From the NCBI RefSeq assembly GCF_003334355.1, contig NZ_QOWP01000023.1: a stretch of DNA of 64,000 bases. The stretch is one strand, 5' to 3'. A program made the position numbers and the translations under genes. A model generated the notes under the pieces. That model saw only the letters and a list, made by a program, of their open reading frames with translations, was not told the DNA's origin and did not search any database. This document shows positions 5,469 to 64,000 of the stretch, piece after piece. Source of the stretch: Escherichia coli. Lineage in GTDB: Bacteria; Pseudomonadota; Gammaproteobacteria; Enterobacterales; Enterobacteriaceae. How positions within the stretch are numbered: position 1 is the stretch's first letter; each line of letters starts with the position of its first letter.

Positions 5469-6755
5469 TTACTGATGATTCATCATCAATTTACGCAACG
5501 CAGCAAAATCGGCGGGCAGATTATGTGAAAGCAAGGGTAAATCAGCACGTTCTGCCAGCTCTTTTGGCAGATCCAACGTTTCACCGAGAATCGCTTCCAC
5601 GCTCTCTTTAAATTTCGCCGGATGCGCGGTGCCGAGGAACAAGCCATATTCGCCTGGATTCAACTGGTCACGCAGCGCACGATACGCTACGGCAGCGTGC
5701 GGCTCCGAGGTGTAGCCCAGTTCTTTTAACTCACGCATTGTCTGTTGCGTGGTTTCATCATCCACGGCTGCATAACCCAGCTCTTTCAGTTGCCAGATTT
5801 TGCGGCGGAACAACTCTTCCACACGCGGCCAGTTGTTCGGCTGACTCACGTCCATCGCGTTGGATAACGTCGCCTGAGTCGCTTTGGGTGACCACTGACC
5901 GTCGTGCAGGAAACGTGGCACGGTATCGTTCACGTTGGTCGCAGCAATAAAACGTTTCACCGGCAGACCGAGTGACTTCGCCAGCAGACCCGCCGTCAAA
6001 TCGCCGAAGTTTCCGCTTGGCACCGAGACAACCAGCTGGTTGCGCGCTTCCTGCGGCAGCTGCGCAACTGCTTCAAAGTAGTAGCAAATCTGCGCCAGCA
6101 AACGGCTGATGTTAATCGAGTTAGCTGAGTTTAACCCCAGCGCCACTTTCAGCTCTTCATCATCAAACGCCTGCTTCACCAGCGCCTGACAGGCATCGAA
6201 ATCGCCGTCGATGGCAACAGTTTCGATATTGCCGCCCAATGTACAGAACAGTTTTTCTTGCAGTGGACTGATTTTGCCTCGTGGATAGAGGATAACCACT
6301 TTCACATTCGGTAAACCGTAGAAAGCATGAGCCACTGCCGCTCCGGTATCACCGGAGGTCGCGGTCAGAATGGTCACTGGCTTATCGCCCGCAATATGGG
6401 TCAGCATTTGTGCCATAAAGCGACCGCCGAAATCTTTAAATGCCAGCGTTGGCCCGTGGAACAATTCCAGACAACCGACATCGCTTTCAACATTGGCGAC
6501 CGGAGCCGGGAAGGCAAACGCCGCGCGCACGCGCTCTTCCAGGATTTCCTGCGGGATTTCATCACCAATAAACGCCGAGAGGATCTTCGCACTGCGGGTG
6601 ACAAAATCCAGCTTCAGCATCTCATCAATTTCAGTCAGGCTGAATTCCGGCAGGTCGTGCGGAAAAAACAGCCCCTGATTTTTGCCCAACCCCTGGGTTA
6701 CGGCTTGCGCAAAGCTGACCTGCTCATTGTGATCTTTCAGATTGTAGAGTTTCAT
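5469..6755 (-). CDS. thrC: Threonine synthase
   Basis: 428 aa, MKLYNLKDHNEQVSFAQAVTQGL...; thr operon context. Confidence 0.95.
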   Translation of the reverse strand: MKLYNLKDHNEQVSFAQAVTQGLGKNQGLFFPHDLPEFSLTEIDEMLKLDFVTRSAKILSAFIGDEIPQEILEERVRAAFAFPAPVANVESDVGCLELFHGPTLAFKDFGGRFMAQMLTHIAGDKPVTILTATSGDTGAAVAHAFYGLPNVKVVILYPRGKISPLQEKLFCTLGGNIETVAIDGDFDACQALVKQAFDDEELKVALGLNSANSINISRLLAQICYYFEAVAQLPQEARNQLVVSVPSGNFGDLTAGLLAKSLGLPVKRFIAATNVNDTVPRFLHDGQWSPKATQATLSNAMDVSQPNNWPRVEELFRRKIWQLKELGYAAVDDETTQQTMRELKELGYTSEPHAAVAYRALRDQLNPGEYGLFLGTAHPAKFKESVEAILGETLDLPKELAERADLPLLSHNLPADFAALRKLMMNHQ

Positions 6756-7688
6756 TTAGTTTTCCAGTACTCGTGCGCCCGCCGTATCCAGCCGGCAAAT
6801 ATGAACAAAACCTTCCTGATTTTGCAGGTAGTTCTTACCCAACCAGTCGGCAACGCGCTGGGCGGTATCCGGCTTGTCACACAGAGCGAACAAGGTCGGG
6901 CCGGAGCCGGAGATACCGCTCGCTACCGCGCCGATTTCCGCAACCGCCTGCCGCGCCTGCCGGAAGCCAGGCAGTAACCGTTCACGGTAGGGTTCAGCGA
7001 TAACATCTTTCATCAGCTTCGCGGCAAGCTCAGGCTGACGGGAATAGCAGGCGTGAATGAAGCCAGCCAGATGTCGCCCGTGCGCAATGCAATCCTGGCG
7101 GCGATACTGCGCCGGTAAAATAGCCCTGGCTTCTGCCGTCGAGACTTTAATCCCCGGATACGCCAGCACCCACAGCCACTCATCAAACCCTGGCACTTGC
7201 TGGCTGATGATGTCGTTTTCTTCGATCATCAACTGCATACCACCAAGAAAACACGGTGCCACGTTGTCGTAATGAATGCTGCCGGAGATTCGTCCTTCCA
7301 GCTCGCCCATCAAAGCCAGCAAACGAGTGTCATTAAGCGGCTTGCCACAGTGTTCATTCATCGCCATCAGCGCCGCGACCACCGAACAGGCGCTGGAGCC
7401 TAAGCCCGAACCGATTGGCATATTCTTTTCCAGAGTCATCGCCACTGGAATTTGCTTGCCAAGCTCCTGGCAAAAACGCTCCCAGCACTGATAAACGATA
7501 TTTTCCCGTGGTTCTGACGGCAGCTTATCGGCAAAGCGTCCGAGGTTGTTGAGACTGAATGTCTCTGCCGCCTCAACCGTGACTACATCTCCGAGCAATG
7601 CACCATCAACAGGTGTCACCGCCGCCCCGAGCACATCAAACCCGACGCTCATATTGGCACTGGAAGCCGGGGCATAAACTTTAACCAT
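6756..7688 (-). CDS. thrB: Homoserine kinase
   Basis: 310 aa, [24 protein letters not shown]... Confidence 0.95.
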
Positions 7689-7689
7689 G

Positions 7690-10152
7690 TCAGACTCCTA
7701 ACTTCCATGAGAGGGTACGTAGCAGATCGGCAAAGACACCGGCAGCTGTAACGTCATTGCCCGCACCATATCCGCGCAGCACCAACGGCAGCGGCTGATA
7801 ATAGTGGCTATAAAAGGCCAGGGCGTTTTCGCCATTTTTCACTTTGAACAGCGGATCATTACCATCCACTTCGGCAATCTTCACGCGGCAGGCACCATCT
7901 TCATCAATATTGCCAACATAGCGCAAAACTTTTCCTTCATCACGGGCCTTCGCCACGCGCGCGGCAAAGAGATCGTCGAGCTGTGACAGATTCGCCATAA
8001 AAGCGGCAACATCACCCTCAGCGTTAAACTCTGCGGGCAGCACAGGTTCAATTTCAATATCCGCCAGCTCCAGTTCACGTCCCGTTTCACGAGCGAGAAT
8101 CAATAGCTTACGCGCTACATCCATACCAGAAAGATCATCTCGCGGATCCGGTTCGGTATAACCCATTTCCCGCGCCAGAGTAGTCGCCTCGGAGAAACTC
8201 ATGCCTTCGTCTAACTTGCCGAAGATATAAGAAAGCGAACCTGAAAGAATGCCGGAGAACTTCATCAATTCATCACCAGCATTGAGCAGATTTTGCAGGT
8301 TCTCAATAACCGGTAATCCAGCCCCAACGTTGGTGTCATAGAGGAATTTACGCCGCGATTTTTCCGCCGCATGACGCAACAGATGGTAGTAATCCATCGA
8401 CGAGGTGTTGGCCTTTTTGTTCGGCGTGACAACGTGGAAACCTTCGCGCAAGAAGTCGGCATATTGATCCGCCACTGCCTGGCTGGAAGTGCAGTCAACA
8501 ATGACCGGGTTCAGCAGATGATATTCTTTCACGAGGCGAATTAAGCGCCCGAGATTAAACGGCTCTTTGGCTTGCGCCAGTTCTTCCTGCCAGTTTTCCA
8601 GATTTAGGCCATGCACATTGGTGAGCAGTGCCTTCGAGTTGGCAACACCGCAGACACGTAAGTCGATATGTTTATTCTTCAGCCAGCTTTGTTGACGCTT
8701 CAGTTGCTCCAGCAGCGCACCGCCAACGCCACCGACGCCAATCACAAACACTTCGATAACCTGATCGGTATTGAACAGCATCTGATGAGTAACGCGCACG
8801 CCAGTGGTCGCATCATCGTTATTTACCACGACAGAGATTGAGCGTTCAGAAGATCCCTGAGCAATCGCGACAATGTTGATATTGGCGCGGGCCAGCGCGG
8901 CAAAGAATTTCGCCGAGATCCCACGCAAGGTGCGCATACCATCACCTACCACCGAGATAATGGCCAGCCGTTCCGTCACCGCCAGCGGCTCCAGTAAGCC
9001 TTCTTTCAGTTCCAGGTAGAACTCTTCCTGCATTGCCCGTTCAGCCCGCACACAGTCGCTTTGCGGAACGCAGAAACTGATACTGTATTCGGAAGATGAT
9101 TGCGTAATCAGCACCACGGAAATACGGGCGCGTGACATCGCGGCAAAGACGCGCGCCGCCATGCCGACCATTCCTTTCATCCCCGGGCCGGAAACGCTGA
9201 ACATTGCCATGTTATTCAGATTGGAAATGCCCTTGACCGGTAATTCGTCTTCATCACGACTGGCACCAATGAGCGTACCTGGTGCTTGAGGATTTCCGGT
9301 ATTTTTAATCAGGCAAGGGATCTGGAACTGGGCGATGGGGGTAATGGTGCGGGGGTGAAGAACTTTAGCGCCGAAGTAGGAAAGCTCCATCGCTTCCTGG
9401 TAGGACATCGACTTCAACAACCTCGCATCGGGCACCTGACGCGGGTCGCAGGTATAGACCCCGTCAACGTCCGTCCAAATCTCGCAACAATCGGCGCGTA
9501 AACAGGCAGCCAGCACCGCCGCGGAGTAGTCGGAACCGTTGCGTCCAAGTACCACCAGTTCGCCTTTTTCATTACCGGCGGTGAAGCCTGCCATCAGCAC
9601 CATGTGATCAGCCGGAATACGACTTGCCGCAATACGGCGGGTGGACTCAGCAATATCGACGGTAGATTCGAGGTAATGCCCCACTGCCAGTAGTTTTTCG
9701 ACCGGATCGATAACGGTAACGTTGTGACCACGCGCTTCTAACACGCCGGCCATAATGGCGATCGACATTTTCTCGCCACGGCAAATCAGCGCAGCGTTAA
9801 TGCTATCCGGGCACTGCCCTAACAAACTAATGCCATGCAGGACATGTTTTATTTGGGCAAATTCCTGGTCGACGAAAGTTTTCAATTGCGCCAGCGGGAA
9901 TCCCGGCTGGGCGGCGGCGAGTCCCGTCAAAAGTTCGGCAAAAATACGTTCGGCATCGCTGATATTGGGTAAAGCATCCTGGCCGCTAATGGTTTTTTCA
10001 ATCATCGCCACCAGGTGGTTGGTGATTTTGGCGGGGGCAGAGAGGACGGTGGCCACCTGCCCCTGCCTGGCATTGCTTTCCAGAATATCGGCAACCCGCA
10101 GAAAACGTTCTGCATTTGCCACTGATGTACCGCCGAACTTCAACACTCGCAT
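7690..10152 (-). CDS. thrA: Bifunctional aspartokinase I / homoserine dehydrogenase I
   Basis: 820 aa, [27 protein letters not shown]... Confidence 0.95.
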
Positions 10153-61960: not shown

Positions 61961-62164
61961 ATGTTTGGTAACTTAGGACAGGCAAAAAAATATCTCGGCC
62001 AGGCGGCAAAGATGTTGATTGGCATTCCAGACTACGACAACTACGTCGAGCATATGAAGACCAACCATCCCGACAAGCCGTACATGAGCTATGAAGAATT
62101 CTTCCGCGAACGCCAGAACGCGCGCTACGGCGGCGATGGTAAAGGCGGTATGCGCTGTTGTTAA
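61961..62164 (+). CDS. yjiX: Small protein YjiX (DUF466), CstA-associated
   Basis: 67 aa, [58 protein letters not shown]... Confidence 0.88.
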
Positions 62165-62174
62165 TGGAGAGAGC

Positions 62175-63131
62175 ATGAACCCGATTGCAGTTACCCTACT
62201 CACCGGTTTTTTAGGCGCGGGAAAAACCACCCTGCTGCGCCATATTCTTAACGAACAACACGGCTACAAGATTGCCGTGATTGAAAACGAATTCGGCGAA
62301 GTCTCCGTTGATGATCAACTAATTGGCGACCGCGCCACGCAGATCAAAACGCTGACCAACGGCTGCATCTGCTGTTCGCGCTCCAACGAGCTGGAAGACG
62401 CACTACTCGACCTGCTGGATAATCTCGACAAGGGCAATATTCAGTTTGACCGTCTGGTCATTGAATGCACCGGCATGGCCGATCCCGGCCCGATTATTCA
62501 GACCTTTTTCTCCCATGAGATTTTATGCCAGCGTTACCTGCTGGACGGTGTGATTGCGCTGGTGGATGCGGTACATGCCGACGAGCAGATGAACCAGTTC
62601 ACCATCGCCCAGTCCCAGGTTGGCTACGCCGACCGTATTCTGCTGACCAAAACCGACGTCGCAGGCGAAGCAGAAAAACTGCGTGAACGCCTGGCGCGCA
62701 TCAACGCCCGTGCACCGGTCTACACCGTCACCCACGGCGACATCGACCTGGGCCTGCTGTTCAACACCAACGGTTTTATGCTGGAAGAGAACGTCGTCAG
62801 CACCAAACCGCGTTTCCACTTTATCGCGGATAAACAAAACGATATTTCGTCGATTGTGGTGGAACTGGATTACCCGGTAGATATCAGCGAAGTTTCCCGG
62901 GTGATGGAAAACCTGCTTCTGGAATCGGCAGATAAACTGCTGCGTTACAAAGGGATGCTGTGGATTGACGGCGAACCTAACCGCCTGCTGTTCCAGGGCG
63001 TCCAGCGCCTCTACAGCGCCGACTGGGACCGCCCGTGGGGCGATGAAAAACCGCATAGCACAATGGTGTTTATCGGGATTCAGTTGCCGGAGGAAGAGAT
63101 TCGGGCAGCGTTTGCGGGGTTGAGGAAGTAA
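62175..63131 (+). CDS. yjiA: COG0523-family GTPase / metal chaperone YjiA
   Basis: Listed ORF contains MNPIAVTLLTGFLGAGKTTLLRHILNEQHGYKIAVIENEFGEVSVDDQL...; CxCC motif GCICCS; start trimmed to 318-aa form. Confidence 0.92.
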   Translation: MNPIAVTLLTGFLGAGKTTLLRHILNEQHGYKIAVIENEFGEVSVDDQLIGDRATQIKTLTNGCICCSRSNELEDALLDLLDNLDKGNIQFDRLVIECTGMADPGPIIQTFFSHEILCQRYLLDGVIALVDAVHADEQMNQFTIAQSQVGYADRILLTKTDVAGEAEKLRERLARINARAPVYTVTHGDIDLGLLFNTNGFMLEENVVSTKPRFHFIADKQNDISSIVVELDYPVDISEVSRVMENLLLESADKLLRYKGMLWIDGEPNRLLFQGVQRLYSADWDRPWGDEKPHSTMVFIGIQLPEEEIRAAFAGLRK

Positions 63132-63164
63132 TTTTGGATGATGGCCGCCATGTGGCGGCCTGAA

Positions 63165-63467
63165 TTATTTTTTGTTCTGATCGCGCAGCATCGCTTCACG
63201 TAAAATTGCGTTCAGGCGAGTTTGATAGCCTTTACCTGGTCGCTTCAACCATTCCATCACATCAGCATCAATACGCACCGAAGCCTGAGTTTTCAATGGC
63301 CGATAAAACTTACCGCGTTCGGCGTTAGACCATTGCTCATCGCTGGAAGGTGGGATATCACTGTAATCAATATCTTCGTCGGATTTATTCGTCAGCGCCT
63401 TCAGTTCGGCCTCATGCTGCACATCGAGTGTAGAGGAGGTCCCTCGTTTATGTTTAACCATGCTCAT
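63165..63467 (-). CDS. BrnA-like antitoxin (COG3514/DUF4415-type)
   Basis: C-terminal signature VRIDADVMEWLKRPGKGYQTRLNAILREAM; start chosen at the Met preceded by SD-like gaggaa, overlapping the upstream toxin stop (100 aa). Confidence 0.75.
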   Translation of the reverse strand: MSMVKHKRGTSSTLDVQHEAELKALTNKSDEDIDYSDIPPSSDEQWSNAERGKFYRPLKTQASVRIDADVMEWLKRPGKGYQTRLNAILREAMLRDQNKK

Positions 63468-63741
63468 AGCGATTCCTCTCTTTACGATCTGCTTTTCGTG
63501 CACTGATGATTCGAATAATTTCATTTCCGCTTTCGAAACGGATGGTATGCGCAACCAGAATAACCACGATGCCGTAAACCAGGCCGATTGTCTGCCAGCG
63601 ATACTCACCGTTTTCTATGCGTTCTTGCTGTGACAAATGTTGTGGATCATCAAACAATAACACCGCATCTTCAAAGCGGATGCCATGTTTCACCCGATTA
63701 CTTTTGGCCTTGTTTTCATCCCATTCAAACTCCATTGGCAT
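63454..63741 (-). CDS. BrnT-like toxin (DUF497 ribonuclease-type)
   Basis: MPMEFEWDENKAKSNRVKHGIRFEDAVLLFDDP...IRIISARKADRKERNRYE matches the BrnT/DUF497 pattern; start at the ATG with SD-like aggga 8 nt upstream (listed ORF begins at an upstream TTG). Confidence 0.75.
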   Translation of the reverse strand: MPMEFEWDENKAKSNRVKHGIRFEDAVLLFDDPQHLSQQERIENGEYRWQTIGLVYGIVVILVAHTIRFESGNEIIRIISARKADRKERNRYEHG

Positions 63742-63924
63742 AATTGCCATCCCTAATTGTATATACAAAAATGTATCTACAATTATTCTGCAATTATAGC
63801 GTTGATGTTGGAAATAGCATCACGTTTCGAATAATCAACCATGAAATTGACAATGAGTAAGTTGGACTTGATTCATCCAATAGAATTTCTCGCCTGACAT
63901 GGCACACTAAACACCTCGCTGTCG

Positions 63925-64000
63925 GGTAATGACTCCAACTTACTGATAGTGTTTTATGTTCAGATAATGCCCGATGACCTTGTCATGCAGCTCCACCGAT
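63925..64000 (-). mobile_element. IS1 insertion sequence, terminal 76 bp (truncated by window end)
   Basis: ggtaatgactccaacttactgatagtgttttatgttcagataatgcccgatgaccttgtcatgcagctccaccgat matches the remembered IS1 inverted repeat and adjacent insB-distal sequence. Confidence 0.85.

What the first reader, a model, noticed from the sequence alone, without database searches (positions are those of the whole stretch)
63165..63768. BrnT/BrnA-like type II toxin-antitoxin module next to yjiA
Two overlapping minus-strand genes in toxin-first order: a DUF497 BrnT-like protein and a BrnA-like antitoxin with the GKGYQTRxNAILR C-terminal signature. Both have plausible SD sequences, and the antitoxin start overlaps the toxin stop, suggesting translational coupling. 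A perfect 12-bp palindrome ttgtatatacaa (63757-63768) sits just upstream of the toxin RBS and is a candidate autoregulatory operator. I do not recall this pair at this position in K-12.
Basis: partly seen in the sequence, partly recalled or inferred. Interest (0 to 1): 0.5.

Follow-up and report, generated by a model that had tools for sequence, protein, structure and literature searches.

The report
Known BrnT/BrnA toxin-antitoxin pair
This is an ordinary, already-annotated BrnT/BrnA toxin-antitoxin gene pair found next to yjiA in about a third of complete E. coli genomes. The one modest addition is that the 12-bp palindrome in front of it is conserved across genera in the way a repressor binding site would be.

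Summary

- **The genes.** Two minus-strand genes overlap by 14 nt. The toxin (63454-63741, 95 aa) matches Pfam BrnT_toxin at E 5e-24. The antitoxin (63165-63467, 100 aa) matches BrnA_antitoxin at E 3e-17.
- **Toxin integrity.** The toxin is about 86% identical to the toxin of a solved Salmonella Typhimurium toxin-antitoxin complex (PDB 7VD7). It keeps all eight residues reported as needed for toxicity or RNase activity in Brucella BrnT.
- **Already annotated.** RefSeq names exactly these proteins "BrnT family toxin" and "BrnA antitoxin family protein". The module lies at this position in 1781-2113 of 5426 complete E. coli genomes. K-12 lacks it.
- **The palindrome.** TTGTATATACAA (63757-63768) is not statistically unusual on its own. 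It is, however, nearly invariant in 19 distinct enterobacterial upstream regions whose flanks have diverged, and it is paired with a second imperfect copy 14 nt upstream. A TGT-N4-ACA core occurs upstream of 23 of 26 relatives, against 0.6% of control windows. This supports an operator for BrnA.
- **Setting.** The module marks the edge of the variable restriction-gene region beyond yjiA. In this window an IS1 element replaces that region.

Interest is low. Toxicity, rescue by the antitoxin and DNA binding remain untested.

The parts
63454..63741 (-). brnT, a type II toxin of 95 aa in the BrnT/DUF497 family (RelE-like RNase)
   Evidence: Pfam PF04365 at E 5.3e-24. PDB 7vd7_A at E 4.8e-52 and Brucella BrnT 3u97_A at E 1.3e-4. 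RefSeq WP_001297643.1 'BrnT family toxin'. dN/dS is about 0.04-0.06 against Citrobacter and Klebsiella orthologues.
63165..63467 (-). brnA, an antitoxin of 100 aa. The N-terminal part (about residues 14-57) binds the toxin. The C-terminal part (about residues 58-95) is a putative ribbon-helix-helix DNA-binding domain carrying GKGYQTRLNAILR.
   Evidence: Pfam PF14384 at E 3.1e-17. 7vd7_B aligns to residues 14-57. The AF2 model shows an extended 60-67 segment, then helices 68-75 and 81-99. RefSeq WP_000063160.1 'BrnA antitoxin family protein'.
63454..63467 (-). 14-nt overlap between the toxin 3' end and the antitoxin 5' end, suggesting translational coupling. The antitoxin SD GAGAGGA lies at 63474-63480.
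   Evidence: Sequence read directly. The same 14-nt overlap (antitoxin starting MSxVK...) is seen in enterobacterial orthologues, directly in L020 and L023 and by inspection of the reading frames in the others.
63757..63768 (.). Site 2: the perfect 12-bp palindrome TTGTATATACAA, the putative high-affinity BrnA operator. It ends 15 nt upstream of the toxin ATG and 2 nt upstream of the SD AGGGA (63750-63754).
   Evidence: Perfect in 17 of 19 distinct enterobacterial upstream regions, with one mismatch in the other two. Information is 1.95 bits per column against 0.56-0.87 in the flanks. Also present upstream of plasmid-borne relatives in Klebsiella and Xenorhabdus.
63771..63782 (.). Site 1: the imperfect copy TTGTAGATACAT (minus strand), 14 nt start-to-start upstream of site 2 and joined to it by a T-run. 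Putative second operator.
   Evidence: Conserved as TTGTMTATRC at 1.69 bits per column. Together with site 2 it forms the 14-nt-arm inverted repeat I3, 93% complementary.
63793..63798 (-). Candidate -10 hexamer TATAAT of the brnTA promoter, with a weak -35 (ATGCTA, 16-nt spacer). This would place both operator sites just downstream of the transcription start.
   Evidence: Own relaxed scan. The stock scan finds no minus-strand promoter. The hexamer is conserved as TATAAT, TATACT or TATTAT only in the Escherichia/Citrobacter/Klebsiella group. The assignment is tentative.
63143..63160 (+). GC-rich hairpin between the convergent yjiA and brnA genes. It is the yjiA intrinsic terminator and lies 4 nt beyond the brnA stop codon.
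   Evidence: Terminator scan: 7 GC pairs followed by a T-run on the + strand.
63926..64000 (-). End of an IS1 element that bounds the brnTA upstream region. It replaces the restriction/hsd region found at this place in other strains.
   Evidence: Alignment with IS1-free strains breaks at 63925/63926. Annotated as IS1 family transposase and followed by mdtM in identical genomes. The junction is present in 1113 of 5426 genomes.

Best explanation
This is a chromosomal type II toxin-antitoxin operon of the BrnT/BrnA family.

- **Toxin.** BrnT is a small RelE-like ribonuclease that arrests translation when free.
- **Antitoxin.** BrnA is translated from an overlapping reading frame immediately after the toxin. 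Its N-terminal segment (about residues 14-57) wraps the toxin and neutralises it. Its C-terminal ribbon-helix-helix domain is proposed to dimerise and bind DNA.
- **Operators.** The proposed binding sites are two tandem AT-rich sites in front of the operon: the perfect palindrome TTGTATATACAA (63757-63768) and an imperfect copy (63771-63782).
- **Regulation.** Binding there, between a probable -10 element (TATAAT, 63793-63798) and the ribosome-binding site, would repress the operon's own transcription.

What is shown here: family membership of both proteins, conservation of the reported toxicity residues, gene order and overlap, purifying selection, and a cross-genus footprint on the two sites.

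What is inferred: RNase activity and toxicity in E. coli, neutralisation, DNA binding by BrnA, and the exact promoter.
For: - **Family.** Pfam hits for both proteins.
- **Solved relatives.** The toxin is about 86% identical to the toxin of the solved Salmonella Typhimurium toxin-antitoxin complex 7VD7, and the antitoxin N-terminus matches its partner chain.
- **Functional residues.** Brucella BrnT residues reported as needed for toxicity or RNase activity are D6, E7, K9, R41, E78 (PMC5086665) and K16, H17, R72 (PMC13284704). Through the alignment they map to D8, E9, K11, R48, E88, K18, H19 and R82. All eight are present, and seven are invariant in 15 orthologues.
- **Selection.** dN/dS is 0.04-0.06 for both genes with synonymous sites near saturation.
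- **Partner gene.** A BrnA-like ORF follows the toxin in all 18 enterobacterial loci and in 37 of 80 relatives by single-sequence search.
- **Operator footprint.** Site 2 carries 1.95 bits per column and site 1 1.69, against 0.56-0.87 in the flanks, over 19 distinct upstream sequences.
- **Wider motif.** TGT-N4-ACA lies within 70 nt upstream of the toxin start in 23 of 26 relatives, against 13 of 2051 control windows.
- **Plasmid copies.** The same palindrome sits upstream of plasmid copies with unrelated flanks.
- **Strand and operator vary together.** In the RHH strand, QASVRID goes with TTGTATATACAA and STTVR(V/L)D goes with AAATGTAGTAACATTT. The sample is small.
Against: - No experiment on the E. 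coli pair was found in the searchable literature.
- No promoter passes the standard consensus scan on the minus strand.
- The candidate -10 is not shared by the Enterobacter/Pluralibacter/Silvania group.
- NCBIfam and PADLOC have no model that matches either protein.
- The in vivo target of BrnT toxins is unsettled. A structurally related toxin, RelS, cleaves 16S rRNA rather than mRNA (PMC13284704).
Confidence: 0.88

Rival explanations
1. The conserved inverted repeat acts at the RNA level. Site 1 and site 2 would pair in the 5' leader to form a hairpin just upstream of the ribosome-binding site, controlling mRNA stability or translation rather than serving as a DNA operator.
For: The leader folds into a 13-pair hairpin with dG -16.4 kcal/mol and a z-score of -3.95 against shuffles. 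Across 16 distinct sequences, 82% of cells can pair.
Against: There is no covariation above the shuffled controls: score 0.060 against 0.055, reached by 122 of 500 shuffles. Changes in site 1 are not compensated in the invariant site 2. Each site is a palindrome by itself, so two similar sites will look complementary regardless. Distant relatives often keep a single TGT-N4-ACA palindrome, which fits a dimeric DNA-binding protein better than a hairpin. Whether the sites are transcribed at all depends on an uncertain promoter.
Confidence: 0.08
2. The module is an inert remnant. The genes are intact but the toxin is no longer toxic, or the operon is silent, so it has no present function in this strain.
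For: Chromosomal toxin-antitoxin modules often decay. In E. coli, 332 of the 2113 genomes with a match carry only part of the locus. Examples are a truncated toxin pseudogene in strain D8 and an orphan antitoxin in strain LSC52. K-12 lacks the locus entirely.
Against: In this window both ORFs are intact, and all eight residues tied to toxicity are present. dN/dS is about 0.05 for both genes. The operator sites are conserved. Decay always spares the antitoxin, which is what one expects if the toxin is active.
Confidence: 0.07
3. The pair works mechanistically as a toxin-antitoxin module, but its biological role is defence. It would either abort phage infection or stabilise the adjacent restriction-modification island against deletion.
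For: It sits at the very edge of the variable restriction region. In IS1-free strains brnT diverges from a restriction endonuclease gene followed by type I hsdMSR and symE. In another strain the antitoxin is followed by Fic and GmrSD genes. Homology to K-12 ends exactly at the yjiA stop codon. In the window lineage the IS1-associated replacement of the restriction region stops 184 bp short of brnT.
Against: Neither protein hits PADLOC. No phage record carries a relative; the single hit in that collection is a Salmonella genome contig. The module persists in 1113 genomes after the restriction island was replaced by IS1, so it is not tied to that island. In Klebsiella, Enterobacter and Raoultella the orthologue is not next to yjiA. 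No phage data exist.
Confidence: 0.15

Closest known systems
Toxin-antitoxin complex of Salmonella enterica serovar Typhimurium, PDB 7VD7 (released 2022)
   Same: The toxin aligns end to end with 7vd7_A at about 86% identity (E 4.8e-52). Antitoxin residues 14-57 align with the whole of chain B (E 4.9e-16). The Salmonella cluster representative P0009 belongs to the same 95-aa orthologue group.
   Different: Different species. The crystallised antitoxin fragment lacks the C-terminal DNA-binding part, so it says nothing about the operator. No publication describing it was found in the searchable library.
BrnT/BrnA of Brucella abortus (Heaton et al. 2012; PDB 3U97)
   Same: Same Pfam families, toxin-first operon and C-terminal RHH antitoxin. 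It is reported to form a 2:2 complex that represses its own promoter (PMC5086665; PMC11980606). All eight residues tied to toxicity or RNase activity are conserved.
   Different: It is only a distant relative (E 1.3e-4, with gaps in the alignment). The operator sequence of the Brucella system was not compared here because the original paper is not held.
HigB/HigA and MqsR/MqsA (other toxin-first RelE-superfamily modules)
   Same: Reverse gene order, with the toxin upstream of the antitoxin. The toxins are RelE-superfamily RNases, and the antitoxin autoregulates through palindromic operators (PMC13284704; PMC11980606).
   Different: Their antitoxins use helix-turn-helix domains. Pfam assigns this pair to BrnT/BrnA only.
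Plasmid-borne BrnTA modules (for example Klebsiella aerogenes p35_E, Xenorhabdus XD_p, and many Acinetobacter plasmids)
   Same: Same two genes with the same overlap. The closest plasmid copies (70-72% toxin identity) carry the same TTGTATATACAA site before the toxin gene.
   Different: They are located on small plasmids, where a maintenance role is the usual assumption. The window copy is chromosomal and syntenic with yjiA in Escherichia, Citrobacter and Pluralibacter.

Membership tests
BrnT toxin family (Pfam PF04365, formerly DUF497) | Significant full-length match to the family profile | tested here: met
   PF04365 at E 5.3e-24, model positions 1-77 of 77. PHROG 4399 'ribonuclease toxin of AT system' at E 6.4e-23.
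BrnT toxin family (Pfam PF04365, formerly DUF497) | Conservation of residues shown to be needed for toxicity or RNase activity in Brucella BrnT (D6, E7, K9, K16, H17, R41, R72, E78) | tested here: met
   The alignment maps them to D8, E9, K11, K18, H19, R48, R82 and E88. All are present, and seven are invariant among 15 orthologues; E9 varies. The residue lists come from PMC5086665 and PMC13284704.
BrnT toxin family (Pfam PF04365, formerly DUF497) | RelE-like fold (four-stranded sheet packed on short helices) | not tested
   No model of the toxin was built. The fold is inferred from about 86% identity to the solved chain 7vd7_A and the sequence match to 3u97_A.
BrnT toxin family (Pfam PF04365, formerly DUF497) | Ribonuclease activity and growth inhibition | not testable with these tools
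   Requires expression and RNA cleavage assays.
BrnA antitoxin family (Pfam PF14384, formerly DUF4415) | Significant match to the family profile, including the GKGYQT(R/K)xNxxLR motif | tested here: met
   PF14384 at E 3.1e-17, model positions 1-68 of 68. The motif is conserved in the 19-sequence alignment A3, with Y81, N86, L89 and R90 invariant.
BrnA antitoxin family (Pfam PF14384, formerly DUF4415) | C-terminal ribbon-helix-helix DNA-binding domain | tested here: inconclusive
BrnA antitoxin family (Pfam PF14384, formerly DUF4415) | N-terminal segment that binds and neutralises the toxin | tested here: met
   Residues 14-57 align with the entire antitoxin chain co-crystallised with the toxin in 7VD7, at E 4.9e-16. 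This is by homology only.
Type II toxin-antitoxin operon | Two small adjacent co-oriented genes, overlapping or closely spaced, encoding a toxin and a cognate protein antitoxin | tested here: met
   14-nt overlap with toxin-first order. The same arrangement is annotated in RefSeq genomes and plasmids.
Type II toxin-antitoxin operon | Autoregulation through an operator in the promoter region | tested here: inconclusive
   The comparative footprint on two sites is strong. Binding and repression cannot be tested here, and the promoter itself is uncertain.
Known anti-phage defence systems (PADLOC-DB v2) | Match to a defence-system protein model | tested here: not met
   No family at E <= 0.01 for either protein.

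The most novel reading that the evidence does not exclude
The brnTA pair at the yjiA border could be more than a selfish module. It could act as a boundary or anchor element of the hypervariable restriction region, limiting how far IS-mediated deletions and island swaps can reach, or as an abortive-infection partner of the neighbouring restriction systems. Separately, the deeply conserved two-site operator (TGT-N4-ACA) shared by chromosomal and plasmid copies could allow cross-regulation between a chromosomal BrnA and incoming plasmid brnTA modules, an anti-addiction effect.
Probability: 0.1. Interest if true: 0.4.

Novelty: already known. Interest (0 to 1): 0.15.

Why it matters
It matters little beyond correct annotation.

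- The pair is a standard member of a characterised toxin-antitoxin family and is already named in RefSeq.
- The useful by-products are a precise, testable operator prediction for the enterobacterial BrnA branch (two sites, 63757-63768 and 63771-63782) and the placement of the module at the exact edge of the variable restriction region.
- These could help anyone studying how this island turns over, or whether chromosomal BrnA cross-talks with the plasmid-borne BrnTA modules common in Klebsiella and Acinetobacter.

Tried and rejected
- **NCBIfam.** No model matches either protein, so PGAP's names must come from another rule. This is not evidence against membership.
- **PADLOC.** No hit.
- **Literature.** Searches for 7VD7, for an E. 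coli or Salmonella BrnTA study and for the RefSeq accessions found nothing specific. The original Brucella paper (PMC3320955) is not held, so its residue data were taken from two later papers.
- **Structure search.** Searches with the BrnA model found only 7vd7_B and noise, so the RHH fold is not confirmed that way.
- **Promoter.** The consensus scan found no minus-strand promoter. A relaxed scan gave no candidate shared by all genera. The embedded TTGTMT-15-TACAAT alternative was rejected because transcripts from it would start downstream of the conserved ribosome-binding site.
- **RNA hairpin.** The reading was tested and found unsupported by covariation.
- **Palindrome rarity.** Treating the palindrome as significant by rarity was rejected.
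- **Phage origin.** Rejected: the one hit in the phage collection is a 501-kb Salmonella contig.

Full report
**Observation**

The minus strand of 63165-63768 carries two overlapping ORFs.
- The upstream one runs 63454-63741 from its ATG and encodes 95 aa (MPMEFEWDENK...). A TTG-started extension reaches 63768.
- The downstream one runs 63165-63467 and encodes 100 aa, containing GKGYQTRLNAILR at residues 77-89.
- The antitoxin ATG lies 14 nt before the end of the toxin stop codon.
- Purine-rich Shine-Dalgarno-like sequences precede both starts: AGGGA 8 nt before the toxin ATG, and GAGAGGA 6 nt before the antitoxin ATG.
- TTGTATATACAA occupies exactly 63757-63768, is a perfect palindrome, and ends 15 nt before the toxin ATG.

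Every factual element of the finding is therefore confirmed.

A perfect 12-bp palindrome is not by itself unusual. The window has 13 of them, against 19 +/- 5 in Markov-1 simulations. The chance of at least one in a 184-bp stretch of this AT-rich composition is about 0.075.

**Identity of the proteins**

The upstream protein matches Pfam BrnT_toxin (PF04365) over the full model at E 5.3e-24. The downstream protein matches BrnA_antitoxin (PF14384) over the full model at E 3.1e-17. PHROGs give concordant toxin and antitoxin families.

Against the PDB:
- The toxin aligns end to end with chain A of 7VD7 (E 4.8e-52, about 86% identical by inspection).
- It aligns more distantly with Brucella abortus BrnT 3U97 (E 1.3e-4).
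- Antitoxin residues 14-57 align with the whole of 7VD7 chain B.
- 7VD7 is described as a toxin-antitoxin complex from Salmonella Typhimurium, released in 2022.

Residues reported as needed for toxicity or RNase activity in Brucella BrnT are D6, E7, K9, R41 and E78 (review PMC5086665) and K16, H17 and R72 (PMC13284704). Through the alignment they map to D8, E9, K11, R48, E88, K18, H19 and R82. All are present here. All but E9 are invariant in 15 orthologues.

**The antitoxin's DNA-binding part**

BrnA is described in the literature as carrying a C-terminal ribbon-helix-helix domain that controls brnTA transcription (PMC11980606).
- An AlphaFold model built on 19 homologues (mean pLDDT 76.5) shows an extended segment at 60-67, followed by helices 68-75 and 81-99. 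This is the strand-helix-helix order.
- A profile search of the PDB gave only a weak hit to the NikR RHH domain (E 0.9).

I rate this defining feature as inconclusive by my own tests, and inferred from the family.

**Already annotated**

Megablast of the 636-bp module against 5426 complete E. coli genomes finds it in 2113. It is always single-copy and almost always chromosomal. Of these, 1781 hold at least 80% of it.

RefSeq labels the two genes "BrnT family toxin" (WP_001297643.1) and "BrnA antitoxin family protein" (WP_000063160.1). The exact protein sequences occur on at least 1000 contigs each in the public collection under those names.

K-12 MG1655 lacks the pair. yjiA and mrr are 45 bp apart there, and homology with the window ends exactly at the yjiA stop codon.

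**Evidence of function from evolution**

Orthologues at 78-94% identity exist in E. albertii, Citrobacter, Klebsiella, Raoultella, Enterobacter, Pluralibacter, Kosakonia and Salmonella.
- In all 18 enterobacterial loci fetched, a BrnA-like gene follows the toxin. The same 14-nt overlap is seen where the start is unambiguous.
- dN/dS against Citrobacter and Klebsiella orthologues is 0.04-0.06 for both genes, while synonymous sites are near saturation.
- Within E. coli, 332 genomes carry only part of the locus. In the examples examined the toxin is truncated or lost while brnA stays intact. This is the usual decay route when a toxin is active.

**The palindrome as operator**

I anchored 19 distinct upstream sequences on the palindrome.
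- It is perfect in 17 and has one mismatch in 2.
- It lies at a near-constant 13-17 nt from the ATG.
- Fourteen nucleotides upstream lies a second, imperfect copy (TTGTMTATRC; in the window TTGTAGATACAT, 63771-63782), joined to the first by a T-run.
- Information content is 1.95 bits per column for site 2 and 1.69 for site 1, against 0.56-0.87 for the flanks.
- Further upstream the sequences fall into two unrelated groups, so the footprint is not just recent common ancestry.

More distant relatives (56-72% toxin identity) from Neisseriaceae, Betaproteobacteria, Moraxella, Xenorhabdus and small Klebsiella plasmids also carry TGT-N4-ACA palindromes just before the toxin gene. The motif occurs within 70 nt upstream in 23 of 26 loci, against 13 of 2051 control windows in the same loci.

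Loci whose BrnA strand reads STTVR(V/L)D share AAATGTAGTAACATTT. Those with QASVRID share TTGTATATACAA. This suggests protein and site vary together, though on few cases.

**RNA hairpin alternative**

The two sites could also pair in a transcript (dG -16.4 kcal/mol, z -3.95). A pair count on the 19-sequence alignment shows no covariation beyond the shuffled controls, and changes in site 1 are never compensated in site 2. Because each site is itself palindromic, mutual complementarity is automatic. I consider the DNA-operator reading much more likely.

**Promoter**

The standard scan finds no sigma-70-like site on the minus strand. A relaxed scan gives ATGCTA-16-TATAAT, with the perfect -10 at 63793-63798. 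That would place both sites just after the transcription start. This -10 is conserved only in the Escherichia/Citrobacter/Klebsiella group, so the assignment is tentative.

**Setting**

- The operon is convergent with yjiA and shares a GC-rich hairpin with it (63143-63160).
- Synteny with yjiA holds in Citrobacter and Pluralibacter, but not in Klebsiella, Enterobacter or Raoultella.
- In IS1-free E. coli, brnT diverges from a restriction endonuclease gene followed by hsdM, hsdS, hsdR and symE. Another strain has Fic and GmrSD genes there. brnTA is thus the first element of the variable restriction region.
- In the window, the native sequence breaks at 63925/63926 into an IS1 end. In identical genomes mdtM follows the IS1. 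This junction is present in 1113 genomes.
- Neither protein matches PADLOC, and phage genomes do not carry relatives.
- Relatives are common on plasmids, mostly in Acinetobacter.

**Verdict**

This is a correct call of an ordinary, already-annotated BrnT/BrnA type II toxin-antitoxin module. The only increment is a well-supported comparative prediction of a two-site operator. Interest is low.

Noticed in passing
window 63926-64000 (and beyond the window end): An IS1 end begins at 63926. In genomes identical over this stretch, the IS1 is followed directly by mdtM. The whole restriction/hsd/symE region present in other strains is therefore missing. The exact junction occurs in 1113 of 5426 complete E. 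coli genomes.
   Followed up: partly
window 63850-63866 versus 63934-63950: A 17-nt stretch of the native brnT upstream region is 88% complementary to the IS1 terminal repeat (ACAATGAGTAAGTTGGA / TCCAACTTACTGATAGT). It is also present in strains without the IS1. It could be an old solo IS1 end or a coincidence.
   Followed up: partly
window 63776-63797; L005 (strain D8): There is a tandem 11-bp direct repeat (TCTACAATTAT / TCTGCAATTAT) between site 1 and the candidate -10. Strain D8 has lost exactly 11 bp here and also carries a truncated toxin pseudogene.
   Followed up: partly
window 63806-63823: The block TGTTGGAAATAGCATCAC is conserved upstream of brnT in Escherichia, Citrobacter, Klebsiella and Raoultella. 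It overlaps a plus-strand promoter-like site (TTGGAA-16-AATAAT, 63808-63835) pointing away from brnT, towards the restriction gene of IS1-free strains. It may be a divergent promoter.
   Followed up: no
window 63129-63131 / K-12 L002: Homology between the window and K-12 MG1655 stops exactly at the yjiA stop codon. K-12 continues with a REP-like sequence and the 3' end of mrr. The variable region therefore starts immediately after yjiA.
   Followed up: yes
L006 (strain LSC52), locus 6001-9319: An orphan brnA with no toxin gene is followed by a Fic family gene and a GmrSD restriction gene. This is a different cargo at the same chromosomal site.
   Followed up: no
window 62091-63131: The mechanical ORF list starts yjiA at 62091 (346 aa). 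RefSeq starts it 84 nt later (318 aa, MNPIAV...). The longer ORF overlaps the end of yjiX and is probably not used.
   Followed up: no
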